From assembly GCA_038206475.1 (NCBI GenBank), contig JBBRAU010000001.1:71235-135234 (forward strand): a DNA stretch of 64,000 nt, written 5' to 3'. The first letter of the stretch is position 1. The number at the start of each line of letters is the position of its first letter. This DNA comes from Patescibacteria group bacterium (GTDB lineage: Bacteria > Patescibacteriota > UBA1384 > JBBRAU01). The translations under genes were made by a program, and so were the position numbers. Shown in pieces: positions 3,331 through 56,955 of this stretch. The notes under the pieces were generated by a model. The model saw nothing but the letters and a program-made list of their open reading frames with translations, had not been told where the DNA came from and searched no databases.

Positions 3331-3472
3331 AAGCAGCAGTCTCGGAGCGCAGCTCCGGGGCTAGTGCCTATACCTGTTTTTGTCGTTTAGTGGCCAGGAT
3401 ACTATAGGTAATCTTGGTATCTGGGCACCAAGGACTATAAATTAACAGAAAACAATAAAAATAACTAGCCTT

Positions 3473-3563
<91 letters not shown>

Positions 3564-41839: not shown

Positions 41840-41927
41840 GGAAGGGTGCTGGAGCGGTCGAACAGGCAGACCTGGAAAGTCTGTGTGGCGCAAGTCACCG
41901 TGGGTTCGAATCCCACCCCTTCCGCCA
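41840..41927 (+). tRNA. tRNA-Ser, anticodon GGA (long variable arm)
   Basis: Manual fold: acceptor GGAAGGG/CCCTTCC, anticodon stem CAGAC/GTCTG with loop CTGGAAA, long variable arm, T-arm GTGGG/TTCGAAT/CCCAC, CCA encoded. Confidence 0.85.
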
Positions 41928-42081
41928 ATTGCGTGACCGCCGTTTAGGCGGTTAAGCAATTGGTTGAGAGGTGATGAATGAAAGCCCAGCGAAACTGGGT
42001 TCGGTCGCGCGCCACGTAGTGGCAAGCGGGGGTACCCCTTGAGGCGTAGCCGAAAGAGGGGTCTATTCACCCCTTCCGCCA
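41928..42081 (+). repeat. tRNA-linked element A: 140-nt insert followed by an exact 14-nt copy (CACCCCTTCCGCCA) of the tRNA-Ser 3' end
   Basis: The direct repeat lies at 41914-41927 and 42068-42081. The element starts with a hairpin that includes the tRNA CCA (CCAATTGCGTGACCGCC/GGCGGTTAAGCAATTGG). It shares blocks GGTTCGGTCG, CGGGGGTACCC, GCGTAGCC and AGGGGTCT with element B. Confidence 0.5.
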
Positions 42082-42150: not shown

Positions 42151-42786
42151 ATGGCAACCCATCCGGAACCAAAAATACTGGTGGCATTCTACAGTTTTAC
42201 CGGTCATACGGCCGAGCTGGCGCATGCCGTGGCCAAAGGAGCGGGCAAAGTAACTAGCCAGGTAACGATCCGCCGCATTCCGGAGCTCATCCCTGAAGAT
42301 GCCATTCCGCTGCAGATTCGGAAAATTGAACACGTCTACGCTGATATTCCGCTAGCCACTTCTGACGACCTGGTCAACTGCGACGGCCTGCTGCTCGGTG
42401 GTCCAACGCACTTCTCCGGTCTGGCGGCACAGGTGAAGCAGTACCTCGACCAATTTGGGCCGATTTGGCAGGAGGGCAAATTGGTTGACAAAGTAGCCGG
42501 TGTTTTCACCTCAATGGGCTCTCTACACGGCGGTGAGGAGACGACGCTGCTGATGACTATCACAACCCTAATTGGTATGGGTTTGATTCCGGTCGGCATC
42601 CCGTATCCAATCAAAGGGGCTAGCGAAGATTTTGATGCGGGCTCGCCGTTTGGCGCCATTCACTACGCTGGCCACGACGGCAGCCGAAGCCTACAGGCCT
42701 CTGACCGTCTAACGGCTGAGCTGCTTGGTGAGCGGGTGGCTAAGGTGGCAGCTGCCATGCTCTGCTGTAAAACAAGCGGCCACTAA
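42151..42786 (+). CDS. Flavodoxin-like NAD(P)H:quinone oxidoreductase (WrbA family)
   Basis: N-terminus KILVAFYSFTGHTAELA (flavodoxin-like FMN site); 211 aa; AAAGGAGG RBS. Confidence 0.65.
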   Translation: MATHPEPKILVAFYSFTGHTAELAHAVAKGAGKVTSQVTIRRIPELIPEDAIPLQIRKIEHVYADIPLATSDDLVNCDGLLLGGPTHFSGLAAQVKQYLDQFGPIWQEGKLVDKVAGVFTSMGSLHGGEETTLLMTITTLIGMGLIPVGIPYPIKGASEDFDAGSPFGAIHYAGHDGSRSLQASDRLTAELLGERVAKVAAAMLCCKTSGH

Positions 42787-44687: not shown

Positions 44688-44775
44688 GCGCCTGTAGCTC
44701 AGTGGGATAACGACCCGTTGCGCAGCAACGGAACGTTTTCCACTTCGCGCTGCTGGAATTCAAGCTAGTCTCGGA
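44688..44775 (+). pseudogene. Degenerate partial duplicate of tRNA-Arg (first ~20 nt identical to the downstream tRNA 5' end)
   Basis: GAGCGCCTGTAGCTCAGTGG is identical at 44686-44705 and 44798-44817. The upstream copy then diverges and cannot form a D-stem or T-arm. Confidence 0.35.
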
Positions 44776-44799
44776 GCTAAAGCTCCAAGCCCATCTTGA

Positions 44800-44875
44800 G
44801 CGCCTGTAGCTCAGTGGATAGAGCGCTGCCCTCCGAAGGCAGAGGCCACAGGTTCAAGTCCTGTCAGGCGTACCA
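44800..44875 (+). tRNA. tRNA-Arg, anticodon CCG
   Basis: Manual fold: GCGCCTG acceptor, D-arm GCTC/AGTGGATA/GAGC, anticodon stem CTGCC with loop CTCCGAA, T-arm CACAGG/TTCAAGT/CCTGT, CCA encoded. Confidence 0.85.
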
Positions 44876-44921: not shown

Positions 44922-46514
44922 GTGAGTACTCATCACCTAAGCAAAAACATGACCAAAGAGCAGGAGCGCACAGAGTTGCACCGTGCTATTTGGCAGATTG
45001 CGAACGATCTGCGCGGAGCAGTGGATGGCTGGGATTTCAAACAGTATGTACTTGGAACGCTTTTTTATCGATTCATTAGCGAGAACTTGACGAACTACAT
45101 CAATGCCGATGAACGTCGCACTGGCAAACAAAATTTTGATTATACAGCGCTTGCCGACGAAGAAGCCGAGTTTGGTCGAGCCGATACGGTGAAAGAAAAA
45201 GGCTTCTATATCTTGCCAAGCGAGCTTTTTGTAAACGTATGCATAAATGCCCGCAGCAACGCCAACCTCAACGAAACGCTTTCTGTTATTTTTCGTAACA
45301 TTGAAAACTCCGCCAAAGGTGCAAGCAGTGAGGATGACCTTCGGGGCCTTTTTGATGACTTAGACGTGAACTCAAGTCGACTCGGAAACACGGTAGAAAC
45401 GAGAAATCGCAAGCTCGCCAAGTTGTTAGAAGCGATCGGCGAGCTTCGCCTCGGTGATTACGCGGATAATACTATTGATGCTTTTGGTGATGCATATGAG
45501 TTCTTGATGACCATGTACGCCTCGACGGCTGGCAAATCCGGAGGCGAATTTTTTACGCCACAGGAGGTCAGCGAGCTCCTCGCTGAAATTACCACTGTCG
45601 GCAAAAAGGAAGTAAACAAAGTTTACGACCCAGCCTGTGGGTCTGGCTCACTGCTCCTCAAATTCGCGAAGGTGTTGGGGCGAGAGAATGTGCGCCAAGG
45701 TTTCTTCGGTCAGGAAATCAATCTTACCACCTATAATCTCTGCCGTATCAACATGTTTCTGCATGATGTGAACTACAACCATTTTGATATTGCTCACGGT
45801 GATACACTTACCGATCCGAAACATTGGGACGACGAGCCGTTTGATGCCATCGTCTCTAATCCGCCTTATTCCATCCACTGGGAAGGTGATGCGGATCCCT
45901 TACTTATCAATGATCCGCGTTTTTCACCGGCCGGAGTGCTGGCACCAAAGAGCAAGGCTGACCTGGCATTTACTATGCACATGCTTTCGTGGCTTTCGAC
46001 CAGCGGCACAGCGGCCATCGTTGAGTTTCCTGGCGTTCTCTATCGCGGTGGTGCGGAGCAAAAAATCCGTAAGTACTTGATAGAGAATAATTACATCGAA
46101 GTCGTCATTCAACTTCCGCCCGATCTCTTTTTCGGCACCACCATTGCCACCTGCGTTATTGTGCTCAAGAAGAGCAAAAAGGACAACAAAACGCTCTTTA
46201 TTGATGCCTCGGCCGAATTTGTACGCAACGGCAATAAAAACAAACTATCACAAGCAAACCGCGCTAAGATTTTAGACGCGTTTACCGCACGCAATGATGC
46301 CGATTACTTTGCCAAATTAGTCGACAATAAAACGATTGCCGAGAATGAGTACAATATTGCCGTATCAAGCTATGTTGTGGCAGAAGACACCCGCGAGGTG
46401 GTGGATATTGCGGTGCTCAATACTGAGATCGCCCGCATTGTTGTGAGGCAGAATGAGCTCCGTACGGCGATTGATAAAATCGTCGTCGATATTGAGGGAA
46501 CAAAAGAACCATGA
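44922..46514 (+). CDS. hsdM: Type I restriction-modification system methyltransferase subunit
   Basis: HsdM N-terminal domain, SAM-binding DPACGSGSLL, catalytic NPPY (VSNPPYSIHW); 530 aa. Confidence 0.9.
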   Translation: MSTHHLSKNMTKEQERTELHRAIWQIANDLRGAVDGWDFKQYVLGTLFYRFISENLTNYINADERRTGKQNFDYTALADEEAEFGRADTVKEKGFYILPSELFVNVCINARSNANLNETLSVIFRNIENSAKGASSEDDLRGLFDDLDVNSSRLGNTVETRNRKLAKLLEAIGELRLGDYADNTIDAFGDAYEFLMTMYASTAGKSGGEFFTPQEVSELLAEITTVGKKEVNKVYDPACGSGSLLLKFAKVLGRENVRQGFFGQEINLTTYNLCRINMFLHDVNYNHFDIAHGDTLTDPKHWDDEPFDAIVSNPPYSIHWEGDADPLLINDPRFSPAGVLAPKSKADLAFTMHMLSWLSTSGTAAIVEFPGVLYRGGAEQKIRKYLIENNYIEVVIQLPPDLFFGTTIATCVIVLKKSKKDNKTLFIDASAEFVRNGNKNKLSQANRAKILDAFTARNDADYFAKLVDNKTIAENEYNIAVSSYVVAEDTREVVDIAVLNTEIARIVVRQNELRTAIDKIVVDIEGTKEP

Positions 46515-47530
46515 AACAGGACGCTCAGAACAATGACATCATCATTTATGAAGGCGAGAACGGCCAGCCGAAAATTGAGGTGCGTGTTGAGGGTGAAACC
46601 GTATGGCTTACTATTGACCAAATGGCCACGTTATTTAACAAAGGACGCTCAACGGTAAATGAGCATATCATCAACATCTATCACGAAAAAGAGCTAGTCG
46701 AGGCTGATTCTGTGAGAAAAATCGGTAATTCCGATTTTTCTACCAAACCCACAAACTACTATAATCTCGACGTTGTCATTTCTGTTGGTTACCGCGTAAG
46801 TTCTGTCCAGGGTACGCGCTTTCGCCAGTGGGCAACCGCACGCCTGCGAGAGTACATCGTCAAAGGCTTCACCATGGACGATGAGCGTCTCAAGAGTTCA
46901 GGTGGCGGAACGTACTGGAAAGAGCTTTTAGAACGCATTCGCGATATTCGGAGCAGCGAGAAGGCCCTTTATCGTCAGGTGTTGGATTTGTATGCGACAA
47001 GTCTAGACTACAACTCAAAAAGCAAAGAAACAGGAGAGTTCTTTAAAACGGTGCAGAACAAACTTCACTACGCCACGAACCAGCAAACTGCCACCGAGCT
47101 TATCCATGCGCGGGCTGATGCTAACAAAGACTTCATGGGACTCACCACCTTTGCCGGAACTATACCTAAGCGATCAGAGGTTTCCATAGCCAAGAATTAT
47201 CTGACCGAAGACGAGCTCTTTCGCCTGAACCGCTTGGTGTCTGCTTTTTTCGACCTTGCTGAAATCAAAGCGCAAGACCATATGCCGATGCATATGAAAG
47301 ACTGGATGGCGGAGCTCGACAAATTTGCTGGGATGTATGGTAAGGGCGTACTGAAAAATGCGGGTGTCGTGAGACATGACGCTGCCATGAAGAAAGCCGA
47401 CCGGGAGTACCGAAAATATCAGGCCAAAACCCTTTCACCCGTTGAAGAAGCATATTTGGCCACGATCAAGGCTTTGCAGAAAAAGGTGGAGAAAAAAGTG
47501 AAAGAGAGCAAGCCAAAGAGTAAAAAGTAA
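46511..47530 (+). CDS. RhuM-family protein embedded in the Type I R-M operon
   Basis: N-terminus DIIIYEGENGQPKIEVRVEGETVWLTIDQMATLFNKGRSTVNEHI resembles the RhuM N-terminal region. Position between hsdM and hsdS, with ATGA overlap to hsdM. Confidence 0.55.
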   Translation: MKQDAQNNDIIIYEGENGQPKIEVRVEGETVWLTIDQMATLFNKGRSTVNEHIINIYHEKELVEADSVRKIGNSDFSTKPTNYYNLDVVISVGYRVSSVQGTRFRQWATARLREYIVKGFTMDDERLKSSGGGTYWKELLERIRDIRSSEKALYRQVLDLYATSLDYNSKSKETGEFFKTVQNKLHYATNQQTATELIHARADANKDFMGLTTFAGTIPKRSEVSIAKNYLTEDELFRLNRLVSAFFDLAEIKAQDHMPMHMKDWMAELDKFAGMYGKGVLKNAGVVRHDAAMKKADREYRKYQAKTLSPVEEAYLATIKALQKKVEKKVKESKPKSKK

Positions 47531-47532
47531 TT

Positions 47533-48672
47533 ATGGCAAAAAATCAAAGCAAAATTGAGAAGCTGATTGCCGAGTACTGTCCCAACGAGGTGGAGTTTAA
47601 AAAGCTCGGAGAGGTCTGTGAAATTACTGATAATAAAAGGAGACCCGTAGCATCGAGTTTACGTGTAGCAGGCAAAATACCATACTATGGTGCAAACAAC
47701 ATACAAGACTATGTTGAAGGTTTCACACATGAAGGTGATTTTGTATTAATTGCTGAGGATGGATCCGCAAACTTAGAAAATTATTCAATCCAGTTTGCGA
47801 CCGGAAAGTTCTGGGCAAATAACCATGTTCATGTTGTTAGAGGATACGATAAATTAAATAATAGGTTTTTATTTCATTATTTAAGAAGCATGAAGTTTAT
47901 TCCATTCTTAACAGGTGGAACTCGTGCAAAGCTTACCAAAAGCAAGATGCTAGAAATAATAATCCCTATTCCGCCGCTTGCGGTGCAGGAGGAGATTGTC
48001 AACATTCTTAATAGCTTTACAGAGCTAGAAGCAGAGCTAGAAGCAGAGCTAGAAGCTAGAAAGATGCAGTACGAGCATTACCGCTCGGCACTTCTGACAT
48101 TTAACGAGGGGGGGGTACGGAGGCCGAGGCTTGATGAAGTATGCCAATCGATTCTCGCAGGCGGAGATTTGCCAGAAAATTATTCGAAGGGTCAAAATAT
48201 GCCAACCCAAGAACTTCCATTCCCCATATATTCAAACGGTTCCGATGATAAAGCGTTGTATGGCTATTCTGATAGCTACAGTATCGGTAGCGAGGCCGTA
48301 ACTATTTCGGCGCGTGGGACCATCGGCTACCACACGGTACGCAAAGCGAAATTCACACCGATTGTTCGTCTCATTACCCTTATTCCCAACACTGAAATTA
48401 TTTCACCAAGGTTTTTAAGCTACGCTCTCGATGTTACTGAAATTGGCCATAGCGGCGGTAGTATTCCACAGTTGACTGTCCCAAATGTCAAAAAAATTCA
48501 AATCCCTGTTCCTGAAATCGCCGAGCAAGAGCGTATCGTGTCTATTTTGGATAAGTTTAATGCACTCGTGAATGACATTTCCGTTGGCCTGCCGGCAGAG
48601 CTTGCTGCGCGTCGGTCGCAATACGAATATTATCGAGGTAAGCTCCTGACATTTAATGAAATGACAGTATGA
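47533..48672 (+). CDS. hsdS: Type I restriction-modification specificity subunit
   Basis: Two target-recognition domains separated and followed by conserved helical repeats (..QYEHYRSALLTFNEG and ..QYEYYRGKLLTFNE). The central region contains an ELEA x3 repeat. Confidence 0.85.
   Translation: MAKNQSKIEKLIAEYCPNEVEFKKLGEVCEITDNKRRPVASSLRVAGKIPYYGANNIQDYVEGFTHEGDFVLIAEDGSANLENYSIQFATGKFWANNHVHVVRGYDKLNNRFLFHYLRSMKFIPFLTGGTRAKLTKSKMLEIIIPIPPLAVQEEIVNILNSFTELEAELEAELEARKMQYEHYRSALLTFNEGGVRRPRLDEVCQSILAGGDLPENYSKGQNMPTQELPFPIYSNGSDDKALYGYSDSYSIGSEAVTISARGTIGYHTVRKAKFTPIVRLITLIPNTEIISPRFLSYALDVTEIGHSGGSIPQLTVPNVKKIQIPVPEIAEQERIVSILDKFNALVNDISVGLPAELAARRSQYEYYRGKLLTFNEMTV
48023..48058 (+). repeat. 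12-bp tandem repeat GAGCTAGAAGCA x3 (encodes ELEA x3) in the hsdS central spacer region
   Basis: Exact tandem copies seen directly in the sequence, inside the central conserved region between TRD1 and TRD2. Confidence 0.85.
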
Positions 48673-49334
48673 ACCAAATTATTTACATCCTCACTAATGA
48701 GTCAATGCCTGAATATATAAAAATCGGGTTTACTCATGGCGAGGTGAACGAAAGAATTAAGCAACTTGACAGAACGGGCGTGCCACTTCCTTTTGAAATT
48801 TACTACGCAGCTACTGTGGAGAATGCAGAGAATGAGGAGAAATGGCTACACTCTATTTTTGCTGACCGTAGAGCGCGCGATAGTCGTGAATTTTTCAGGA
48901 TGAGTCCGGAACACGCAACTCTTGCACTTAAGCGGGTTGAAATTACCGAGGAAAAAATAGAGAACATCCTAACTAAAGAGCAGGAAAAAGAAGTAGACAA
49001 GGCAAAAGAAAGAAGGGCGCGATTTCAGTTTGCTCAGTATGGAATTCCTGTCGGTTCTAAACTGACATTCACTAGAGACGAAGGTATCGTCGCTGAAGTT
49101 GTGGAGAACGATAAAATAAAAATTGGTGACAGCGTAAGCAGCCTATCCACCTGCGCGATGGAGCTGTTGGGGTATCAGAGACGGCCGCAGGGAACCTTAT
49201 ACTTCAAGTTCAAGGACGAGATATTAGATGACAGGCGAAAGAGAATGGATGAGGTGGAACCAACGCCAAAGGGCGTAGAAGCTGCTGGTGATGAGTGGAT
49301 GTCACAACAGGCAGAAATAGAACAAGGAAAATAA
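48669..49334 (+). CDS. T5orf172/GIY-YIG-like domain protein embedded between hsdS and hsdR
   Basis: N-terminus IIYILTNESMPEYIKIGFTHGEVNERIKQLDRTGVPLPFEIYYA fits the T5orf172 (GIY-YIG-like) pattern; 221 aa; ATGA overlap with hsdS. Confidence 0.5.
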   Translation: MNQIIYILTNESMPEYIKIGFTHGEVNERIKQLDRTGVPLPFEIYYAATVENAENEEKWLHSIFADRRARDSREFFRMSPEHATLALKRVEITEEKIENILTKEQEKEVDKAKERRARFQFAQYGIPVGSKLTFTRDEGIVAEVVENDKIKIGDSVSSLSTCAMELLGYQRRPQGTLYFKFKDEILDDRRKRMDEVEPTPKGVEAAGDEWMSQQAEIEQGK

Positions 49335-49335
49335 T

Positions 49336-52300
49336 ATGTCCACTAACAATAAATACCATCTTGTTTCTGAAAATACGCAAAGCACCGTTGTGGCCGAATT
49401 TGCACCAGACGGCGTTCGTGTGGCGCACTATCAAAGCGAAGCAGAACTAGAAAAAGCGCTTATTCAGCAGCTTGAAACACAGGCATATGAATACGTGGCC
49501 ATTGCTACTGAAGCCGACTTGGTGGCGAACCTGAGAAAACAGCTAGAGAAACTGAACAATTTTACGTTTGGCGATAGCGAATGGGAACATTTCTTTACTG
49601 GCGAACTTGCCAACCCGAATCAGAGTATTGAAGAAAAGACAGCGACTATTCAAGAGGACTACATTAAAAACCTTACGCGCGATGACGGCACAATCAAAAA
49701 TGTGTACTTGTTAAAAAAAGACAACATTCATAATAATAGCTTGCAGGTTACCAATCAGTACGCCACAGAAGACGGTATGCGGGCTAATCGCTACGATGTG
49801 ACAGTGCTTGTGAATGGTCTGCCAATGGTGCACATCGAGCTAAAACGGCGCGGTATAGCCATTCAAGAGGCCTTCAATCAGATTAATCGCTATCAGCGCG
49901 AAAGTTTTTGGGCGGCCAGTGGGCTATTCGAATATGTGCAGTTGTTTATTATTTCCAATGGTACTCACACCAAATACTACAGCAACACCACGCGTAAAGA
50001 ACACATTAAAGATGCAAGCGAAGGCGCGGCGAAACAAGGCAAGCGCTCAAGCAACAGTTTTGAATTTACAAACTGGTGGGCCGACGCCACTAACCGGCCA
50101 ATTTCCGATCTAATGGATTTTGCCCAGACCTTTTTTGCCAAACACACGCTTCTTAATATCCTCACTCGTTACTGCGTATTTACGACCGATCGACAGCTTC
50201 TGGTGATGCGCCCATATCAAATTGTGGCAACCGAACGAATACTGAACCGCATTGAGGTGAGTACAAATTATAAGCAGCTCGGCACCATAGAAGCCGGTGG
50301 GTATGTATGGCACACCACTGGGTCAGGGAAAACTCTGACAAGCTTCAAAACAGCCCTACAGGTGAGCAAACTGGCGTATGTAGACAAAGTGGTGTTTGTG
50401 GTTGACCGCAAAGATTTAGACTACCAAACTATGCGCGAATACGACAAGTTCGAGAAAGGCGCAGCCAACAGCAACACCTCGACGGCGGTATTAAAACGAC
50501 AGTTGGAAAATCCGCAAGCCCGAATCATTATCACAACCATTCAAAAGCTCGATCATTTCGTAAGCCGCAACGCCGGACACCGTATTTTTGACGGTCACGT
50601 CGTACTTATTTTTGACGAATGCCATCGCTCACAGTTTGGTGATATGCACGCCGCAATCACAAAGGCCTTCAAGAATTACCACATTTTCGGTTTTACGGGC
50701 ACGCCAATTTTTGCGGTCAACGCGTCCTCTGGAGGCCGTCCAGATTTCAAAACGACCGAGCAGGCCTTTGGCGATAAATTGCACACGTACACCATTGTAG
50801 ACGCGATTGCCGACAAAAATGTTCTACCGTTTAAGGTGGATTATGTTTCTACGGTTCGTGAAGCCGAGGATATTGAAGATAAAAAAGTAAGCGATATTGA
50901 TCGCGAGGCAGTGCTCGCTTCTCCAGAGCGTCTGGCGAATATTGTCGGTTATATTCGTGAGCATTTTGATCAAAAAACGAAGCGCAATAGCTTCTACAAA
51001 CTGAAAGACCGGCGGTTGGCCGGCTTTAATTCTCTCTTTGCCGTTTCGTCAATTGATGTCGCTAAGAAGTACTATGTTGAGTTCAAGCGTCAGCTCGCCG
51101 ACGCGCCAAGTGATAAGCGTCTCAAAATAGCGACCATATTCAGCTTTGGTGTCAATGACGATGATGCCGACGGTATGCTAGATGAAAACTCAGATGACAC
51201 GAGCGGGCTAGACGCAAGTTCACGGGACTTTTTGGAACATGCTATCGCTGACTATAATGCGATTTTTGGGACTTCGTACGACACGTCGTCCGACAAATTT
51301 TCCAATTATTACAAAGATGTGAGCTTGCGCGTTAAAGGCCGCGAGATTGATATTTTGATCGTCGTCAACATGTTTTTAACTGGCTTTGATGCAACAACGC
51401 TTAACACACTCTGGGTTGATAAAAACTTGCGACTTCACGGCCTATTGCAAGCTTTCTCGCGGACAAACCGTATTCTCAACAGCGTAAAGACTTTTGGCCA
51501 TATCGTGTGCTTCCGCAATTTAGAAAAGGCAACGAATGAATCAATTGCGCTTTTTGGTGATAAAGAAGCCAGAGGCGTTGTATTGCTAAAATCATATGCT
51601 GAATACTACGGGGGTTACGTGCACGGTGATAAGGCGGTGCTTGGCTATGCAAATCTCGTCGCTGAGCTGCTTGAGAAGTATCCTATTGGGCAGGCTATTA
51701 TTGGCGAACAAAGTCAAAAGCATTTTATCAGACTATATGGCGCAATTTTGCGTGTGCGGAACATTTTGACGACATTTGATGAATTTGTGGGCAACGAAAT
51801 TTTGACCGCGCGTGATGTGCAAGACTACCACAGCATGTACATTGACCTCTATAACGAATTTAGCAAAGGCGTGGAAGACGACAAAGAGAACATTATCGAT
51901 GACGTCGTATTTGAGATGGAACTGATCAAACAGATTGAAATAAATATTGACTACATTTTGGGGCTCATCAAACACTATCATGAAGATCATACTCAAAACC
52001 GTGAGCTTTTGGCGGATATCAACAAAGCAATCGACTCAAGTATTGAACTGCGAAACAAAAAGGATCTTATTAATCAATTTATTTTATCGCTCGACATACA
52101 CTCAGTGGTTGATGATGATTGGCAGAAGTTTGTCAACCAGAAAAAGACGGAAGAACTTGAGCAAATTATTGAGACCGAAGGGCTGGATCGCGATGCCACC
52201 TATACGTTTGTGCGAAACGCCTTCCGCGACGGAGGCGTAATGGTGACCGGCACAGACATCTCTCGTGTTCTGCCTCCGGTATCTCGCTTTTTAGCAACCG

Positions 52301-52395
52301 GCGAGCGTTCTGAGAAACGCAATAGCGTGCTCAATAAATTAACGAGTTTCTTTGAGCGATTCTTCGATATCTCCGGCGGTTCATTCACGGACTAG
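49336..52395 (+). CDS. hsdR: Type I restriction endonuclease R subunit
   Basis: N-terminal nuclease domain, DEAD-box helicase motifs (TGSGKTLT, DECHRSQ), 1019 aa. Confidence 0.9.
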   Translation: MSTNNKYHLVSENTQSTVVAEFAPDGVRVAHYQSEAELEKALIQQLETQAYEYVAIATEADLVANLRKQLEKLNNFTFGDSEWEHFFTGELANPNQSIEEKTATIQEDYIKNLTRDDGTIKNVYLLKKDNIHNNSLQVTNQYATEDGMRANRYDVTVLVNGLPMVHIELKRRGIAIQEAFNQINRYQRESFWAASGLFEYVQLFIISNGTHTKYYSNTTRKEHIKDASEGAAKQGKRSSNSFEFTNWWADATNRPISDLMDFAQTFFAKHTLLNILTRYCVFTTDRQLLVMRPYQIVATERILNRIEVSTNYKQLGTIEAGGYVWHTTGSGKTLTSFKTALQVSKLAYVDKVVFVVDRKDLDYQTMREYDKFEKGAANSNTSTAVLKRQLENPQARIIITTIQKLDHFVSRNAGHRIFDGHVVLIFDECHRSQFGDMHAAITKAFKNYHIFGFTGTPIFAVNASSGGRPDFKTTEQAFGDKLHTYTIVDAIADKNVLPFKVDYVSTVREAEDIEDKKVSDIDREAVLASPERLANIVGYIREHFDQKTKRNSFYKLKDRRLAGFNSLFAVSSIDVAKKYYVEFKRQLADAPSDKRLKIATIFSFGVNDDDADGMLDENSDDTSGLDASSRDFLEHAIADYNAIFGTSYDTSSDKFSNYYKDVSLRVKGREIDILIVVNMFLTGFDATTLNTLWVDKNLRLHGLLQAFSRTNRILNSVKTFGHIVCFRNLEKATNESIALFGDKEARGVVLLKSYAEYYGGYVHGDKAVLGYANLVAELLEKYPIGQAIIGEQSQKHFIRLYGAILRVRNILTTFDEFVGNEILTARDVQDYHSMYIDLYNEFSKGVEDDKENIIDDVVFEMELIKQIEINIDYILGLIKHYHEDHTQNRELLADINKAIDSSIELRNKKDLINQFILSLDIHSVVDDDWQKFVNQKKTEELEQIIETEGLDRDATYTFVRNAFRDGGVMVTGTDISRVLPPVSRFLATGERSEKRNSVLNKLTSFFERFFDISGGSFTD

Positions 52396-52505
52396 CCAAA
52401 GTCACCATACGTAAATGGCAAGAGTAGGGTTTGGGCATCTTGGAAAAATAGCTACTCTAAAGCGCGTTTTTTGACACTCTGCTCGCGCCTTGCTTGAGTG
52501 AAGTT

Positions 52506-55451
52506 ATGCCAGACGACCTCGTTCAACAAGTAAAGCAACGCCTTGACATCCTTGACTTGGTCCAAGGCTATGTTCAGTTGAAAAAAACCGGCATTAACTG
52601 GAAGGGCCTCTGCCCGTTCCACCAAGAGAAAACGCCGTCGTTTACCGTCAACCAAGAACGTCAGAGCTGGCACTGTTTTGGCTGCTTCCCGAAGGGTTCT
52701 CATGTAAAAACTCCAAGAGGTTTTTGCGATATTGACCAACTTCGAGCAGGAGACGTTGTTATCTCGGGGAAAGGGCAGGAAAAGTCCGTACTCACGACGC
52801 ATCGTCATATGTATAAGGGCGAGCTCGTCCGTATTTCTTTATGCAAGCTTGGTGGCGAAGTGGCGCTAACCGGGGATCATAAAGTATTCGCTTTACGCGG
52901 AGCGCCTTACACCAAAATCTATAAAAACTTCAGCCGACGCTTGAAGCGCTACCAACAACTGCCAGCGGACCAATATCGACAAAAGCTCGACCGCTACTTC
53001 CCTGTCGAAAAAGTGGAGGCACACGAGTTAACGATTGGCGATTTGTTATTATATCCAATCTCCTACAGGACCGAACCAATCTCTTCGCTAGTCCCTTGTG
53101 ACCATTTAACAAAAACATTCCGTCTTGGGCCGAAACCGAGTGATTTACCAAAAGAGCTCCCGATTACTGACAGTCTACTGAAATTACTCGGATACTATAT
53201 TGCTGAGGGTAGTAACCATCGTGCCTACATTCGATTTAGCCTCGGTGGCCATGAGCTGAAACTCGCTAAAGAGATTCAAGTCTTGCTCAAAGAAGTGTTT
53301 GGCCTGGTCTCTAGCATCCACGTTCGCCAAGGAGGCAAGCCCGGGATAGAGGTTACGTGCTGTCACGCTGCGCTAGCCGATATTTTTGGCAACTTGTGTG
53401 GCAAAGGGGCGGCCAATAAACACATCCCTTTTGAGCTTCGGCACTTGCCAGTAGGCCAACAGCAGGTGCTGCTTAACGCCATCTGGACGGGTGACGGTAC
53501 TGCTCGTGCTAAACATCGGTCACTTAAAATTGAACGCTCAATCGGCAGTATTTCGCAGACACTGGCCGAGCAAATAGTTGATATCTTGCTGCGCAGGCAT
53601 ATCTTTCCCTCGCTTCAGGTTATCCAAGCACATACGAGCGGCGATGGCGTCAAACACAGAATGGCCTACACTGTTGTTTGGGGAGAGGCTGGTGAGGATA
53701 AATACAATAGTGTCTACCAAGCGGCGGGCGGTACTCATTATTGGGTGTTGCCAGTTGTCCATATAGCAAAAGAACCCTTCTGCGACGAGGTGTTCAACCT
53801 GACGATTGAGGATGACCATTCGTATGTCGCGCGCAATTTCGCGGTTGCCAACTGCGGCGAGGGCGGGGACATTTTTACCTTTGTCGAAAAGATTGAACAC
53901 GTTGAATTTAAAGAGGCGCTGGAGCTGCTGGCTGGCCGGGTTGGGCTGGAGGTCAAACCGCAAACGCCGGTTGAGCGTCAGCAGAAGGGCGAAAAGGCGA
54001 AACTTGAGGAGCTATACCAGCTGGCCAGCCGCTTCTACCACGCGTTGCTCATTAACCATCCGCTTGGCCAAGCTGCCCGCGATTACCTCGCCAAGCGGGG
54101 TGTTTCAGCTGAGTCGGTCAAAGCGTGGCAATTGGGTGTGGCGCCCGACCACTGGGACGCCCTGCTCTCGGCACTGCAAAAGCGCGGTTTCACGGCCGAT
54201 GAGTTGGTCAAGGCCGGATTGGCCGTCAAAAATGAGCGCGGCAACATTTATGACCGCTTTCGGAACCGCTTGTTGTTCCCGATTATCACCGCCAGCGGCC
54301 AACCGGTCGCTTTCTCTGGCCGGGTGATAACGGCTGATCAAGAACCCAAATACTTAAACTCGCCTGAGAGCCTGCTCTATCGCAAGAGCAGTGTTGTGAT
54401 GGGACTGAATTTAGCCAAAGAGGCAATTCGGAAGGCCGGCCAAGTAATGGTGGTCGAAGGCAATTTAGATGTCCTTATTTGCCAGCAGTTTGGCCTGACC
54501 AACACCGTCGCTACCGGCGGCACGGCGCTAACGTCTGACCACCTGCGCTTACTGGCTCGCTACGCCCCAGTCGTTATTTTTGCCTTTGATGCGGACGCCG
54601 CCGGCCAGAAAGCGGCTGAAAAGGCGGCGCTGTTGGCGCTAGAGGTGGGCCTGGAGCCACGCTTCATTGCCTTGCCGGCCGGAGATGACCCAGACTCGCT
54701 GCTACGCCGGGATGAAGCCGCCTTCCGCCAGGCTATGGCTGCCGCTCTGCCGGCCGTGCCGTACTTTTTAGAACGGGCGCTCAATGAGTATGGCCAGGCT
54801 ACCGCACAAGCCAAAAAGCAGGTGGCGGCAGCGGTGGTGCCGTTGCTCCGCCGCATACACGATCCAGTCGAGCAGGCGGATTCATTGCAGCAGGTGGCCG
54901 ACCGACTGCATGTGCCACGAGAGGCCATAGAGAGTGCTGTTTCAGCTGAGACGAAGGCAAAAACGACCGTTCCGGTGGTAGCGGCGACCGCCCGCCGCGG
55001 TCCGCTCGAGCCAAGCCAGCGCTTGTTTGGCCTGCTGCTGCTCTCGGAACGGCCACTGCCACCGCTTGACCCACTGCTACAGGATAGTCCAGACAAAACG
55101 CTGCAGTTTTTGCAGGCTCGGCAGGCAGAGGGGATTGGCGACAAGATGAGTTGGGCGACGTGGCAGGCCAAGCAACCGCAGCCAATCCAGGCGCGTTTGG
55201 CCTCACTGCTGACCGTGGCGGCCGAAGCCTACGGTGAGTTGCCACAGGAGCAGTTCGAGGCTGAAATTACGCTGCTTTTGGCGGCGCTGCGTTCCCGGGT
55301 TCTTGAGCACCAGCAATCGGACCGCCAGGCCGAAATTCGGCTGGCCGAGCAGGCGGGCGACAAGGCGCGCGTACGCTCACTGCTGCAAGAGATGATGGAT
55401 GATTTGGTCATGCCCCCACCGGCCAGCGCGGATCCTCGTCAAAAAACATAA
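52506..55451 (+). CDS. dnaG: DNA primase DnaG interrupted by an intein
   Basis: Zinc ribbon CPFHQEKTPSF..WHCFG. The extein resumes CGEGGDIFTFV. TOPRIM (VVEGNLDVL) and a C-terminal helicase-binding domain are present. Start taken at ATG 52506 (MPDDLVQQVK); the ORF-track 52494 is TTG. Confidence 0.85.
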   Translation: MPDDLVQQVKQRLDILDLVQGYVQLKKTGINWKGLCPFHQEKTPSFTVNQERQSWHCFGCFPKGSHVKTPRGFCDIDQLRAGDVVISGKGQEKSVLTTHRHMYKGELVRISLCKLGGEVALTGDHKVFALRGAPYTKIYKNFSRRLKRYQQLPADQYRQKLDRYFPVEKVEAHELTIGDLLLYPISYRTEPISSLVPCDHLTKTFRLGPKPSDLPKELPITDSLLKLLGYYIAEGSNHRAYIRFSLGGHELKLAKEIQVLLKEVFGLVSSIHVRQGGKPGIEVTCCHAALADIFGNLCGKGAANKHIPFELRHLPVGQQQVLLNAIWTGDGTARAKHRSLKIERSIGSISQTLAEQIVDILLRRHIFPSLQVIQAHTSGDGVKHRMAYTVVWGEAGEDKYNSVYQAAGGTHYWVLPVVHIAKEPFCDEVFNLTIEDDHSYVARNFAVANCGEGGDIFTFVEKIEHVEFKEALELLAGRVGLEVKPQTPVERQQKGEKAKLEELYQLASRFYHALLINHPLGQAARDYLAKRGVSAESVKAWQLGVAPDHWDALLSALQKRGFTADELVKAGLAVKNERGNIYDRFRNRLLFPIITASGQPVAFSGRVITADQEPKYLNSPESLLYRKSSVVMGLNLAKEAIRKAGQVMVVEGNLDVLICQQFGLTNTVATGGTALTSDHLRLLARYAPVVIFAFDADAAGQKAAEKAALLALEVGLEPRFIALPAGDDPDSLLRRDEAAFRQAMAAALPAVPYFLERALNEYGQATAQAKKQVAAAVVPLLRRIHDPVEQADSLQQVADRLHVPREAIESAVSAETKAKTTVPVVAATARRGPLEPSQRLFGLLLLSERPLPPLDPLLQDSPDKTLQFLQARQAEGIGDKMSWATWQAKQPQPIQARLASLLTVAAEAYGELPQEQFEAEITLLLAALRSRVLEHQQSDRQAEIRLAEQAGDKARVRSLLQEMMDDLVMPPPASADPRQKT
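52683..53852 (+). mobile_element. Intein (390 aa) with LAGLIDADG homing endonuclease inserted in the DnaG zinc-binding motif
   Basis: Begins with Cys right after HCFG (CFPKGSHVKT..) and has a block-B-like TGDH. Two LAGLIDADG-like motifs are LLGYYIAEGS and LLNAIWTGDG. It ends ..DDHSYVARNFAVAN followed by extein Cys. Removing it restores HCFGCGEGGD. Confidence 0.7.
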
Positions 55452-56744: not shown

Positions 56745-56819
56745 TCCTGGGTAGCTCAATGGCAGAGCGGCTGGCTGTTAACCAGCGGGTTGTCGGTTCG
56801 AGTCCGACCCCAGGAGCCA
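56745..56819 (+). tRNA. tRNA-Asn, anticodon GTT
   Basis: Manual fold: acceptor TCCTGGG/CCCAGGA, anticodon stem GCTGG with loop CTGTTAA, T-arm GTCGG/TTCGAGT/CCGAC, CCA encoded. Confidence 0.85.
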
Positions 56820-56955
56820 AAACAATGCAGGCGTAGCCTGTTTTTGTTTTGGCTCCTGGGGGACAGGAGTTGAACTGCCGCATGGCGGTTCGGTCGTGAG
56901 CGGAGTGAACGGGGGTACCCTGCGTAGCCAGGGGTCTGTCCGACCCCAGGAGCCA
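56820..56955 (+). repeat. tRNA-linked element B: ~118-nt insert followed by an exact 18-nt copy (GTCCGACCCCAGGAGCCA) of the tRNA-Asn 3' end
   Basis: The direct repeat lies at 56802-56819 and 56938-56955. An 18-nt perfect inverted copy of the tRNA 3' end plus trailer (56808-56825 vs 56844-56861) forms a long hairpin. It shares conserved blocks with element A. Confidence 0.5.

What the first reader, a model, noticed from the sequence alone, without database searches (positions are those of the whole stretch)
41840..42081. Related ~140-nt elements 3' of tRNA-Ser(GGA) and tRNA-Asn(GUU), each ending in an exact copy of its own tRNA's 3' end including CCA
Each of the two tRNA genes is followed directly by an element of ~136-154 nt, at 41928-42081 and 56820-56955. 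Each element ends in a perfect copy of the last 14 nt (Ser: CACCCCTTCCGCCA) or 18 nt (Asn: GTCCGACCCCAGGAGCCA) of the adjacent tRNA. The two elements sit at different tRNAs yet share ordered internal blocks: GGTTCGGTCG, then ~15-20 nt, then CGGGGGTACCC, then GCGTAGCC, then AGGGGTCT. A short hairpin (AGGGGT/ACCCCT or GGGGTC/GACCCC) sits just before the copied acceptor 3' strand, so the 3' end looks like a T-arm plus acceptor strand plus CCA. Element B also carries an 18-nt perfect inverted copy of the tRNA 3' end plus trailer (56808-56825 vs 56844-56861). This gives it the sequence TCCTGGG, which could pair with its own 3' CCCAGGA to form an acceptor-like minihelix. A 3'-end duplication is the classic attL/attR signature of tRNA-targeted integration. 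Here, however, the insert is tiny, it carries no integrase, and it is conserved between two different target tRNAs. That points to either a miniature non-autonomous element family mobilised in trans, or a functional tRNA-trailer RNA with a tRNA-like CCA end. I do not recognise it as a described family.
Basis: seen in the sequence. Interest (0 to 1): 0.8.

Follow-up and report, generated by a model that had tools for sequence, protein, structure and literature searches.

The report
Tiny conserved inserts behind two tRNAs
In an uncultivated Patescibacteria (CPR) bacterium, two different tRNA genes are each followed by a ~140-base insert that shares a conserved, hairpin-rich core and ends in a copy of that tRNA's own tail; it most likely marks a new family of miniature tRNA-targeting mobile elements, not a housekeeping RNA.

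Summary
tRNA-Ser(GGA) and tRNA-Asn(GUU) are each followed by a 154/136-nt segment that ends in an exact 14/18-nt copy of the tRNA's 3' end. The two segments share a core (0 of 500 shuffles reach its alignment score). Both are identical in an independent assembly.

New anatomy, the same in both loci: tRNA, terminator-like hairpin, inverted copy of the tRNA's 3' third, short loop, sense copy of the T-stem 5' strand plus TTCG, a 45/61-nt conserved core (GTCG...AGGGGTCT) where tRNA position 58 would be, then tRNA positions 59-76.

There is no Rfam match. Pattern scans of GTDB genomes, JGI metagenomes and IMG/VR found no other copy. The closest relatives have tRNA-Asn without the element. In that clade the same tRNA-Asn carries a serine-recombinase island flanked by a 20-nt tail repeat, a GIY-YIG cassette and a group I intron.

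Best reading (about 0.4): a miniature, non-autonomous product of tRNA-targeted site-specific integration, whose conserved folded core is its cis-acting end.

Rivals: a structured non-coding RNA, a T-loop-specific mini-insertion, a guide-RNA-like homing module, or an inversion-duplication rearrangement.

No recombinase or effector lies in the window, and only two copies are known.

The parts
41840..41927 (+). tRNA-Ser(GGA), intact, CCA encoded
41928..41960 (+). Element A, left part: nested hairpin AATTGC/GCAATT around (G)ACCGCC/GGCGGT. With CCA it makes CCAATTGC/GCAATTGG. Terminator-like but with a weak T run. Not similar to the left part of B
41961..41989 (+). Element A: decayed inverted copy of a tRNA-Ser 3' third (positions 76 back to 49), TGGTTGAGAGGTGATGAATGAAAGCCCAG. 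Slightly closer to the antisense of tRNA-Ser(CGA) than of tRNA-Ser(GGA)
   Evidence: 3-8 of 1000 shuffles reach the global score; not significant as a local alignment
41980..42002 (+). Element A hairpin P1: GAA[AG]CCCAG-CGAAA-CTGGGTTC. The GAA/TTC base is conserved and the top differs from B
   Evidence: read from the sequence
41995..42003 (+). Element A: CTGGGTTCG, resembling tRNA-Ser positions 49-57 (GTGGGTTCG)
   Evidence: 47 of 1000 shuffles
42004..42064 (+). Element A conserved core, 61 nt: GTCG, optional hairpin GCCAC-GTA-GTGGC, CGGGGGTACCCC, hairpin ACCCCT...AGGGGT with GCGTAGCC in its loop, then CT
42065..42081 (+). Element A tail: 17 nt corresponding to tRNA-Ser positions 59-76; the last 14 (42068-42081) are exact
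56745..56819 (+). tRNA-Asn(GUU), intact, CCA encoded, directly downstream of dnaG(intein)-rpoD
56820..56849 (+). Element B, left part: two-way terminator-like hairpin CAGGC-GTA-GCCTG followed by TTTTTGTTTT
56850..56879 (+). Element B: inverted copy of the tRNA-Asn 3' third (positions 76 back to about 49). With the 6 nt before it, it forms the exact 18-nt inverted repeat 56844-56861 against tRNA tail plus trailer 56808-56825
   Evidence: (0 of 1000 shuffles)
56872..56891 (+). Element B hairpin P1: GAACTGCC-GCAT-GGCGGTTC
56884..56892 (+). Element B: GGCGGTTCG, resembling tRNA-Asn positions 49-57 (GTCGGTTCG)
   Evidence: 61 of 1000 shuffles
56893..56937 (+). Element B conserved core, 45 nt: GTCG, 13-nt spacer, CGGGGGTACCC, hairpin CCCTG-CGTAGC-CAGGG (contains GCGTAGCC), GGTCT
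56938..56955 (+). Element B tail: exact copy of tRNA-Asn positions 59-76 (18 nt), ending at CCA

Best explanation
A and B are two members of a lineage-specific family of miniature, ORF-less insertions made by site-specific integration into the T-loop-to-CCA segment of tRNA genes.

Proposed mechanism:
- As in tRNA-targeted genomic islands, the incoming DNA carries its own copy of the tRNA 3' end. The gene is therefore regenerated on the left, and the original 3' fragment is displaced to the right end of the insert. This step is shown in form, by the direct repeat that ends exactly at CCA.
- What lies between the repeats is only the element's two ends. The left end supplies a terminator-like hairpin for the regenerated tRNA.
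- The right end is the conserved 45-61-nt core plus the dyad AGGGGT(C)-N5/6-(G)ACCCC at the junction. I infer that this is the cis-acting, folded site bound by a recombinase or transposase supplied in trans from elsewhere in the genome, or now lost.
- The inverted copy of the tRNA 3' third makes the whole insert a long hairpin. I infer that it is either part of that recognition structure or was sharpened by quasi-palindrome template switching.

Shown: the anatomy, the significance of the similarity, absence in relatives, and use of the same tRNA by a genuine integrative element. Inferred: mobility in trans, the enzyme class, and the role of the core.
For: (1) The direct repeats start in the T-loop/T-stem and end exactly at CCA in both loci. 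This is the same geometry as the 20-nt repeat GAATCTGACCCGGGGAGCCA that flanks a 7.7-kb element with a large serine recombinase at tRNA-Asn in relative L021.
(2) It is established that a regenerated tRNA plus a displaced fragment marks the ends of an integrated element (Islander abstract, PMC4383910; tRNA fragments arising from integration, PMC9897764).
(3) Sites without the element: the tRNA-Asn of L006 has an identical 18-nt tail followed directly by a plain terminator. The tRNA-Asn of L008 downstream of rpoD is also without it.
(4) No copy was found elsewhere by exact-block scans of 596 Gb of genomes, JGI metagenomes and IMG/VR, nor in any fetched locus.
(5) tRNA ends in this clade are repeatedly invaded. 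Examples: a GIY-YIG cassette flanked by copies of the tRNA-Asn 5' end (L020, L025, L026); a group I intron (L006); and an 18-nt 5'-end copy 112 nt upstream of tRNA-Arg(CCG) in this window.
(6) The left edge of the repeat falls inside the spacer of a dyad whose element-side arm, AGGGGTC(T), is conserved, while the tRNA-side arm varies but shares ACCCC. The three tRNAs in the window that lack ACCCC at that place lack the element.
(7) Four blocks (37 of 37 nt) are identical while the spacers differ entirely and by 5-6 nt. This argues for selection on a cis-acting folded site rather than a decaying scar, and rules out coding sequence.
Against: No integrase, serine recombinase, transposase or reverse transcriptase was found by Pfam anywhere in the 64-kb window. 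No full-length parent element carrying the core was found. Only two copies are known, so mobility is inferred and not observed. The left arms of A and B are unrelated, although a complete mini-attP should conserve both arms. Spacings between blocks that vary by 5-6 nt fit a folded RNA or single-stranded DNA better than phased protein-binding arm sites. The inverted copy of the tRNA 3' third, and the placement of the core exactly at T-loop position 58 of a second partial tRNA copy, are not predicted by classical integrase models. The pattern scans needed exact blocks, so diverged relatives would have been missed.
Confidence: 0.4

Rival explanations
1. A structured non-coding RNA linked to the tRNA. 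It would be a trailer or independently transcribed RNA of about 105-120 nt, closed by pairing between the anti-tail segment and the tail copy. It would carry hairpin P1, an optional P2 and a hairpin presenting GCGUAGCC, and would end in a mimic of the tRNA 3' end (NCCA). Possible roles: a decoy or sponge for factors that bind tRNA 3' ends, or a processing or termination switch for the tRNA. Known analogues (from memory) are E. coli rtT RNA and tRNA 3'-ETS sponge RNAs.
For: Identical blocks are separated by variable-length spacers and by a hairpin present only in A. P1 keeps its pairing with a different sequence at the top. The closing helix follows the identity of each tRNA, with 3 of 8 pairs changed on both sides. 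The modules fold better than shuffles: z = -4.1 for B and -2.3 for A, and also on the minus strand. The anti-tail can pair with either the tRNA's own tail or the tail copy, which is the layout of a switch.
Against: The element is absent after tRNA-Asn in the closest relatives and was not found in any other genome or metagenome. There is no Rfam match, rtT included, even at E <= 10. A terminator-like hairpin with a T run sits between tRNA-Asn and the core, and no promoter-like site precedes the core. With two sequences the covariation is anecdotal, and the low folding energies come largely from the tRNA-derived palindrome. The strand cannot be assigned.
Confidence: 0.2
2. The conserved core is itself a tiny mobile insertion that targets the tRNA T-loop just after GGTTCG. 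It could be an IS200/IS605-like palindrome-associated element or a REP-like element moved by a single-strand HUH transposase, or an intron-like element. It would survive only in dispensable tRNA 3' fragments left behind by earlier integrations or duplications.
For: In both loci the core lies between a copy of tRNA positions 49-57 and a copy of positions 59-76. It therefore replaces position 58 exactly, with no target duplication or terminal inverted repeat of its own. It has hairpins near both ends. In relatives, displaced tRNA-Asn 5' fragments also carry short GC-rich palindromic insertions (L020, L025).
Against: At 45-61 nt it is smaller than known palindrome-associated elements. No Y1/HUH transposase is in the window. 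No core copy was found outside a tRNA context. The resemblance of the 9 nt before the core to each tRNA's own T-stem is only marginal (47 and 61 of 1000 shuffles), and GGTTCG could belong to the core. This reading also needs a pre-existing palindromic tRNA fragment at both loci.
Confidence: 0.12
3. A guide-RNA-like homing module: a conserved scaffold followed by a 17-18-nt 3' segment identical to the nearby tRNA gene end. On the minus strand this reads as a 5' segment antisense to the tRNA end, followed by the scaffold. It would direct an RNA-guided transposase, nuclease or regulator to tRNA 3' ends, with the T-loop TTCGA as the adjacent motif. The comparison is with the delocalized crRNAs of CRISPR-associated transposons, which home next to tRNA genes, and with TnpB omega RNAs.
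For: The layout is scaffold with variable stems, then a hairpin, then 2 nt, then a target-matching stretch of constant length (17 and 18 nt) that differs between loci. Delocalized crRNAs with spacer-like sequences that target sites next to tRNA genes are documented (PMC11656645).
Against: There is no Cas12, TnpB, IscB or Tn7-like gene next to either copy or anywhere in the window. The 651-aa ORF upstream of tRNA-Ser is cysteine-poor and gave no Pfam match. No transposon ends were seen. A's matching stretch is mismatched in the four positions next to the T-loop, which would be the seed. There is no similarity to any Rfam scaffold. A repeat ending exactly at CCA is explained more simply by the need to regenerate the tRNA.
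Confidence: 0.07
4. A local rearrangement with no function: a tandem inversion duplication (direct-inverted-direct copies of the tRNA 3' third), produced by snap-back or template switching at the terminator hairpin. The similarity of the cores would come from gene conversion or from one locus being copied into the other.
For: The direct-inverted-direct order of tRNA 3' third copies, with the first junction centred on a hairpin, is what snap-back synthesis gives. This mechanism is cited from memory of work on Salmonella tandem inversion duplications and on quasi-palindrome mutagenesis.
Against: It does not explain why two different tRNAs 15 kb apart carry the same foreign core at the same T-loop position, nor why four blocks are identical while everything between them differs. 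The copies in each locus match their own tRNA, so one locus was not simply copied into the other.
Confidence: 0.06

Closest known systems
tRNA-targeted integrative elements (genomic islands and prophages, as catalogued in Islander), including the serine-recombinase element at tRNA-Asn in relative L021
   Same: An intact tRNA on one side and a displaced 3' fragment as a direct repeat on the other. The repeat runs from the T-loop/T-stem to the last base of CCA. Absent in relatives. The same tRNA-Asn is used in the same clade.
   Different: The insert is 136-154 nt and has no integrase or cargo. Two different tRNAs carry the same right arm but unrelated left arms. The insert also holds an inverted copy of the tRNA 3' third.
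E. coli tyrT-rtT repeats / rtT RNA (Rfam RF00391; described from memory)
   Same: A segment directly downstream of a tRNA gene that ends in a copy of that tRNA's 3' end, CCA included, and that can be released by tRNA processing.
   Different: There is no sequence or structure match. It is a single unit, not tandem. The same core follows two unrelated tRNAs, which local duplication cannot explain.
Non-autonomous derivatives of integrative or transposable elements (CIMEs, MITEs; from memory)
   Same: Small, ORF-less, flanked by the recombination or duplication signature of the parent class, and presumed to be mobilised in trans.
   Different: No parent element is known. The terminal inverted repeat (12 nt perfect in B) is derived from the target, not from the element. 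The 14-18-nt duplication is tied to the tRNA end.
Guide RNAs with a 3' guide: CAST delocalized crRNA, TnpB omega RNA (PMC11656645 and memory)
   Same: A conserved scaffold followed by a short locus-specific stretch that matches a tRNA-gene end nearby.
   Different: No effector, no transposon ends and no known scaffold. One copy is mismatched at the seed-equivalent positions.
IS200/IS605 palindrome-associated elements and REP/REPIN elements (from memory)
   Same: Very small, hairpin-rich, with no terminal inverted repeats or target duplication of the core itself. Insertion is at a fixed short motif (after TTCG). A GTAG motif lies in GCGTAGCC.
   Different: It is much shorter than known examples. 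No Y1/HUH transposase was seen. It is found only inside partial tRNA copies.

Membership tests
tRNA-targeted integrative element (island/prophage) | Regenerated intact tRNA plus a displaced 3' fragment as a direct repeat at the far end | tested here: met
   Exact repeats of 14 nt and 18 nt that end at CCA
tRNA-targeted integrative element (island/prophage) | Integrase or recombinase gene inside the element | tested here: not met
   The insert is 136-154 nt with no ORF that is conserved between A and B (indels of 5-6 nt). No recombinase Pfam hit in the window
tRNA-targeted integrative element (island/prophage) | Unoccupied site in related genomes | tested here: met
   The tRNA-Asn of L006 (same 18-nt tail) and of L008 lack the element. 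No relative was available for tRNA-Ser
tRNA-targeted integrative element (island/prophage) | Excision and integration activity (circular junction, polymorphism) | not testable with these tools
   Needs raw reads of SRR19962014 or an experiment
rtT-like tRNA-trailer RNA | Match to the rtT covariance model (Rfam RF00391) | tested here: not met
   No hit at E <= 10 in either region
rtT-like tRNA-trailer RNA | Unit downstream of the tRNA that ends in that tRNA's 3' end with CCA | tested here: met
rtT-like tRNA-trailer RNA | Co-transcribed with the tRNA and processed to a discrete RNA | not testable with these tools
   A terminator-like hairpin between tRNA-Asn and the core argues against efficient read-through
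MITE | Family-wide terminal inverted repeats and a fixed-length target-site duplication | tested here: not met
   The inverted termini are copies of each tRNA's own tail (perfect 12 nt in B, degenerate in A). The cores have no terminal inverted repeats. The duplications are 14 and 18 nt
RNA-guided homing module (CAST delocalized crRNA / TnpB omega RNA) | Scaffold followed by a guide that matches a target next to a fixed motif | tested here: inconclusive
   The form fits: B has 18 of 18 matches after TTCGA. In A, 4 motif-proximal positions are mismatched
RNA-guided homing module (CAST delocalized crRNA / TnpB omega RNA) | Effector gene (Cas12k, TnpB, IscB, Tn7 genes) adjacent or in the same element | tested here: not met
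   None in 64 kb by Pfam. The 651-aa neighbouring ORF has no Pfam match and is cysteine-poor
IS200/IS605-type palindrome-associated element | Insertion 3' of a fixed tetra- or pentanucleotide, without target duplication or terminal inverted repeats, and with subterminal hairpins | tested here: inconclusive
   The core follows TTCG in both loci and has hairpins, but there are only two copies
IS200/IS605-type palindrome-associated element | Cognate Y1 (HUH) transposase in the genome | not testable with these tools
   None in the window. The rest of the genome could not be reached
Any described RNA family (ribozymes, riboswitches, sRNAs, tmRNA, Y-RNA-like) | Covariance-model match in Rfam 15 | tested here: not met
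   Only the tRNAs reach threshold. Nothing credible at E <= 10 over the elements

The most novel reading that the evidence does not exclude
The module is the RNA (or single-stranded DNA) component of a so far undescribed system in CPR bacteria that recognises tRNA genes or tRNAs by base pairing. It would consist of a conserved scaffold joined to an 18-nt copy, and an inverted copy, of tRNA positions 59-76. It would either guide a trans-encoded transposase or recombinase to T-loops, making it a self-homing mini-element that encodes only its guide, or bind or mimic the tRNA 3' end.
Probability: 0.1. Interest if true: 0.85.

Novelty: new variant of a known kind. Interest (0 to 1): 0.5.

Why it matters
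If these are mobile, they would be the smallest tRNA-targeting insertions described. They would show that the 'regenerate the tRNA, displace its tail' strategy of genomic islands can be carried by about 120 nt of non-coding DNA. That in turn means the recognition determinants for a tRNA-specific recombinase or transposase fit in a 45-61-nt folded core, which is a compact, portable attachment module. They also add to the evidence that tRNA genes in the very small genomes of CPR bacteria are heavily used landing sites. In one clade the same tRNA-Asn carries an intron, a GIY-YIG cassette, a serine-recombinase island or this element. If the core is instead an RNA that pairs with or mimics tRNA 3' ends, it would be a new class of tRNA-linked regulator or guide. 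With two copies in one uncultivated genome, it is at present a well-documented oddity rather than a system.

Tried and rejected
1. Rfam 15, at gathering thresholds and at E <= 10 over both regions: only tRNAs. The weak microRNA-type hits reflect the long hairpin.

2. Genome-collection scan with GGTTCGGTCG-N(8-32)-CGGGGGTACCC: 4 hits, all inside high-GC sequence with no tRNA in the locus (only L004 was read; it looks like coding sequence). Judged chance. The source genome itself is not in that collection.

3. Metagenome scan with the three 3' blocks: 9 hits, none near a tRNA. Eight belong to one unrelated-looking 43-nt repeat in high-GC sequence.

4. Three IMG/VR scans returned 0 hits. BLAST against the phage and plasmid collections gave nothing.

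5. Homologue searches. The 651-aa upstream ORF returned only itself at my threshold of 1e-20, which was too strict to reveal distant relatives. The FMN-reductase neighbour has no relative above 51% identity, so no orthologous tRNA-Ser locus could be found. The look-up of the source contig through its RpoD failed, so I could not walk along the genome.

6. Similarity of the core to the group I intron in the tRNA-Asn of L006: not significant (46 and 140 of 500 shuffles).

7. Similarity of the 94-nt insert upstream of tRNA-Arg to A or B: none.

8. Coding potential: the short ORFs across the core are not conserved, and the indels are 5-6 nt (read from the sequence).

9. A clean tRNA-like minihelix or a full pseudo-tRNA: ARAGORN calls nothing, and the T-arm-like hairpin overlaps the acceptor strand.

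10. Casposon-like or transposase-type target duplication: no terminal inverted repeats on the insert.

11. The palindromic CCTGCCTGCCGCAGGCAGG insertion seen in relatives is not a dispersed repeat in the fetched loci.

12. An inverted tail copy near the right end of the L021 element is only marginal (77 of 2000 shuffles).
Full report
**Check of the observation**

ARAGORN and Rfam find five tRNA genes in the window, among them tRNA-Ser(GGA) at 41840-41927 and tRNA-Asn(GUU) at 56745-56819. All five encode CCA. The last 14 nt of tRNA-Ser recur exactly once, at 42068-42081. The last 18 nt of tRNA-Asn recur exactly once, at 56938-56955. The other three tRNAs have no copy of their tail.

The two-block pattern occurs only at these two places, and never in 100 shuffles. 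With the tail copies removed, the local alignment of A and B scores 37, against 15.8 +/- 2.4 for dinucleotide shuffles (0 of 500). All of that similarity is in the right-hand part; the left-hand parts are unrelated. The 18-nt inverted repeat in B is exact. Both elements are identical in contigs assembled independently from sequencing run SRR19962014 (L005 and L027).

**Organism and context**

The window carries dnaA-dnaN-recF, a type IV secretion-like cluster, recA and ftsK. It also has a type I restriction-modification locus after tRNA-Arg(CCG), and dnaG (with an intein)-rpoD directly upstream of tRNA-Asn. The nearest RpoD homologues that carry names are from Patescibacteria/CPR bacteria. No integrase, recombinase, transposase, reverse transcriptase or Cas/TnpB-like protein is detected by Pfam in the 64 kb. 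The 651-aa ORF just upstream of tRNA-Ser has no Pfam match and is cysteine-poor.

**Anatomy: what is really there**

Both loci have the same order of parts.
- (i) The intact tRNA.
- (ii) A hairpin right after CCA. In B it is a two-way terminator-like hairpin followed by TTTTTGTTTT.
- (iii) An inverted copy of the tRNA's own 3' third. In B, 56850-56879 aligns to the antisense of tRNA-Asn positions 76 back to about 49 (0 of 1000 shuffles). With the trailer it forms the exact 18-nt inverted repeat. In A, 41961-41989 is a decayed version: 3-8 of 1000 shuffles reach the global score, and it is not significant as a local alignment.
- (iv) A 4-5-nt loop.
- (v) Nine bases resembling tRNA positions 49-57: CTGGGTTCG in A and GGCGGTTCG in B. 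The locus-specific part of this resemblance is only marginal.
- (vi) The conserved core, GTCG...AGGGGTCT. It is 61 nt in A (42004-42064) and 45 nt in B (56893-56937).
- (vii) tRNA positions 59-76: 18 of 18 in B, and the last 14 of 17 in A.

The core therefore sits exactly where T-loop position 58 would be in a second, direct, partial copy of the tRNA. The inverted copy makes the whole module a long hairpin. Its closing helix follows each tRNA's identity (RNAalifold: 8 closing pairs, 3 changed on both sides).

Inside the core, four blocks (37 nt) are identical, while the spacers differ completely and by 5-6 nt. That excludes a conserved reading frame. A has an extra hairpin (GCCAC-GTA-GTGGC), and GCGTAGCC lies in the loop of a hairpin in both. 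Hairpin P1 keeps a GAA/TTC base with different tops.

The hairpin before the tail (AGGGGT/ACCCCT or GGGGTC/GACCCC) uses the first C residues of the acceptor strand. It therefore competes with the closing helix, and the 3' end is not a clean T-arm-acceptor minihelix.

**Distribution**

Rfam has no family for it. Exact-block scans gave the following:
- 185,579 species genomes: four matches, all in high-GC sequence with no tRNA in the locus; the one I read (L004) looks like coding sequence.
- JGI metagenomes: nine hits, none next to a tRNA.
- IMG/VR: nothing in three scans.
- Phage and plasmid collections: nothing.

These scans need exact blocks, so diverged relatives could be missed.

Relatives reached through RpoD homologues are informative. 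In L006 (88% RpoD identity) the tRNA-Asn has the identical 18-nt tail and is followed directly by an ordinary terminator. In L008 (78%) the tRNA-Asn downstream of rpoD is also plain. The element is therefore not a conserved feature of this tRNA.

**tRNA-Asn in this clade is a landing pad**
- In L021 (75%), a 7.7-kb segment lies between two copies of GAATCTGACCCGGGGAGCCA. That repeat covers tRNA positions 57-76 and again ends exactly at CCA. The segment carries a large serine recombinase whose gene overlaps the tRNA 3' end, plus Rep_O-like and HTH genes. L022 and L023 share the left junction.
- In L020, L025 and L026, a GIY-YIG gene lies between a copy of the tRNA-Asn 5' end (with upstream flank) and the intact gene. 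The displaced 5' copy carries short GC-rich palindromic insertions.
- In L006 the anticodon loop holds a group I intron (61 bits, Rfam RF00028).
- In the window itself, tRNA-Arg(CCG) has an exact 18-nt copy of its own 5' end 112 nt upstream.

Partial duplications of tRNA ends that flank foreign DNA are thus the local norm. The window's versions are the ORF-less, roughly 100-140-nt end of that spectrum.

**Most likely mechanism (confidence about 0.4)**

It is established that integration into a tRNA gene splits the gene. The element restores it with its own copy, and the displaced fragment marks the far end (PMC4383910; PMC9897764). A and B have exactly this signature, with the same repeat geometry as the genuine element in L021, and they are absent from relatives.

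I therefore read them as miniature, non-autonomous products of site-specific integration into the T-loop-to-CCA segment. The left end provides a terminator for the regenerated tRNA. The right end is the conserved core plus the junction dyad, whose element-side arm AGGGGTC(T) is constant and whose tRNA-side arm shares ACCCC. The three tRNAs that lack ACCCC there lack the element, although five tRNAs is a small sample.

Perfect conservation of the blocks beside fully diverged spacers argues that the core is under selection as a cis-acting folded site. It does not look like a decaying scar.

Not shown: any enzyme, any parent element, any movement. Also not explained by classical integrase models: the unrelated left arms, the half-turn spacing differences, the inverted tRNA copy, and the exact T-loop placement of the core.

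**Rivals**
- (a) Structured non-coding RNA (0.2). The conservation pattern, the optional stem and the locus-specific closing helix look like an RNA. The anti-tail could pair with either the tRNA's own tail or the copy, as in a switch. However, the element is not conserved in relatives, lies downstream of a terminator-like hairpin with no visible promoter, and matches no known family.
- (b) The core as a separate T-loop-specific mini-insertion (0.12), for example an IS200/IS605-like or REP-like element that survives only in dispensable tRNA fragments.
- (c) A guide-RNA-like homing module (0.07). Scaffold plus a 17-18-nt target match is the layout of a 3'-guide RNA, and CRISPR-associated transposons use delocalized crRNAs to home next to tRNA genes (PMC11656645). 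However, there is no effector, there are no transposon ends, and A is mismatched at the motif-proximal positions.
- (d) A tandem inversion duplication by snap-back synthesis (0.06). This explains the direct-inverted-direct order, but not the same foreign core at two tRNAs.

**Comparison with known systems and novelty**

The element works most like a tRNA-targeted integrative element. It fails that family's membership test on the defining integrase and cargo. It resembles E. coli rtT in position and in the CCA-ended tail copy (from memory), but not in sequence, in structure, or in being shared between tRNAs. It is not a classical MITE, because its inverted termini are copied from the target.

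I classify it as a new variant of a known kind: a tRNA-end insertion with a displaced fragment, and with unusual anatomy. A roughly 10% chance remains that it belongs to an undescribed base-pairing-guided system. I score interest at 0.5. The feature is real, unannotated and oddly built, but it is known from two copies in one uncultivated genome, and its function is inferred.

Noticed in passing
window 44688-44705 versus 44800-44817: tRNA-Arg(CCG) has an exact 18-nt copy of its own 5' end (GCGCCTGTAGCTCAGTGG) 112 nt upstream. The 94 nt between them hold two hairpins and no ORF, and are unrelated to A or B. The copy is also present in Logan contig L005. It looks like the 5'-side counterpart of a tRNA-end duplication.
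   Followed up: partly
window about 3341-3358 (-) and 44771-44789 (+): Both tRNA-Arg genes are preceded, 10-13 nt upstream, by a similar motif CTAGnCnCGGAGCT-nnn-GCTCCRAG (a hairpin). It may be a shared promoter or processing element, or a trace of common origin.
   Followed up: no
L006 4316-4528: In the closest relative found (88% RpoD identity), the tRNA-Asn is interrupted in the anticodon loop by a group I intron of about 205 nt (Rfam RF00028, 61 bits). ARAGORN did not call this tRNA.
   Followed up: yes
L021 11658-19451 (also L022 and L023, left junction): A 7.7-kb integrated element at tRNA-Asn. It carries a large serine recombinase (Resolvase + Recombinase + Zn_ribbon_recom) whose gene overlaps the tRNA 3' end, plus Phage_rep_O-like and HTH genes. 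It is flanked by a 20-nt direct repeat of tRNA positions 57-76.
   Followed up: yes
L020 4038-4451; L025 11240-11608; L026 1570-1937: An 80-aa GIY-YIG nuclease gene sits between a displaced copy of the tRNA-Asn 5' end (with upstream flank AAAACATTTAT) and the intact tRNA-Asn. The displaced copy is interrupted by GC-rich palindromes (CCTGCCTGCCGCAGGCAGG; L020 has two insertions). The arrangement is conserved between relatives at 81% and 72% RpoD identity.
   Followed up: partly
L011 3195-3237; L012/L013/L014/L018; L016 2126-2168; L017 1227-1269: A 43-nt high-GC element, GGGGGTACCCCCGGCAGTGAGGGCGTAGCCGCCGGGGGAGGGG, lies at four or more different high-GC loci (organisms not identified). In each case the surrounding sequence reads open through it in one frame (GGTP...GVA.GGG). 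Its inner stem covaries. It resembles the in-frame palindromic elements of Rickettsia. It shares the three searched blocks with the core of A, and also 'TGAGG' before GCGTAGCC. Whether that is homology or chance is unresolved.
   Followed up: partly
window 52494-55451: The DnaG primase carries an intein with a LAGLIDADG domain (Hint/Intein_splicing plus LAGLIDADG_3) inserted after the zinc-ribbon domain. The relatives' DnaG proteins (564-612 aa) lack it.
   Followed up: no
window 44922-52395: A type I restriction-modification locus lies directly downstream of tRNA-Arg(CCG), with two inserted genes (RhuM family; T5orf172/GIY-YIG-like) between hsdM, hsdS and hsdR. No tRNA-Arg 3' repeat marks its far end.
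   Followed up: partly
window 41961-41989: The inverted arm of element A matches the antisense of tRNA-Ser(CGA) (3473-3563, minus strand) slightly better than that of the adjacent tRNA-Ser(GGA). On the minus strand the closing helix of A has a G-U pair where the plus strand has a C-A mismatch.
   Followed up: partly
window 42151-42786: The FMN-reductase/NAD(P)H:quinone oxidoreductase gene next to element A has no relative above 51% identity in 5.8 billion proteins. The 651-aa gene upstream of tRNA-Ser returned only itself at E <= 1e-20. The tRNA-Ser neighbourhood therefore looks recently acquired or fast-evolving.
   Followed up: no
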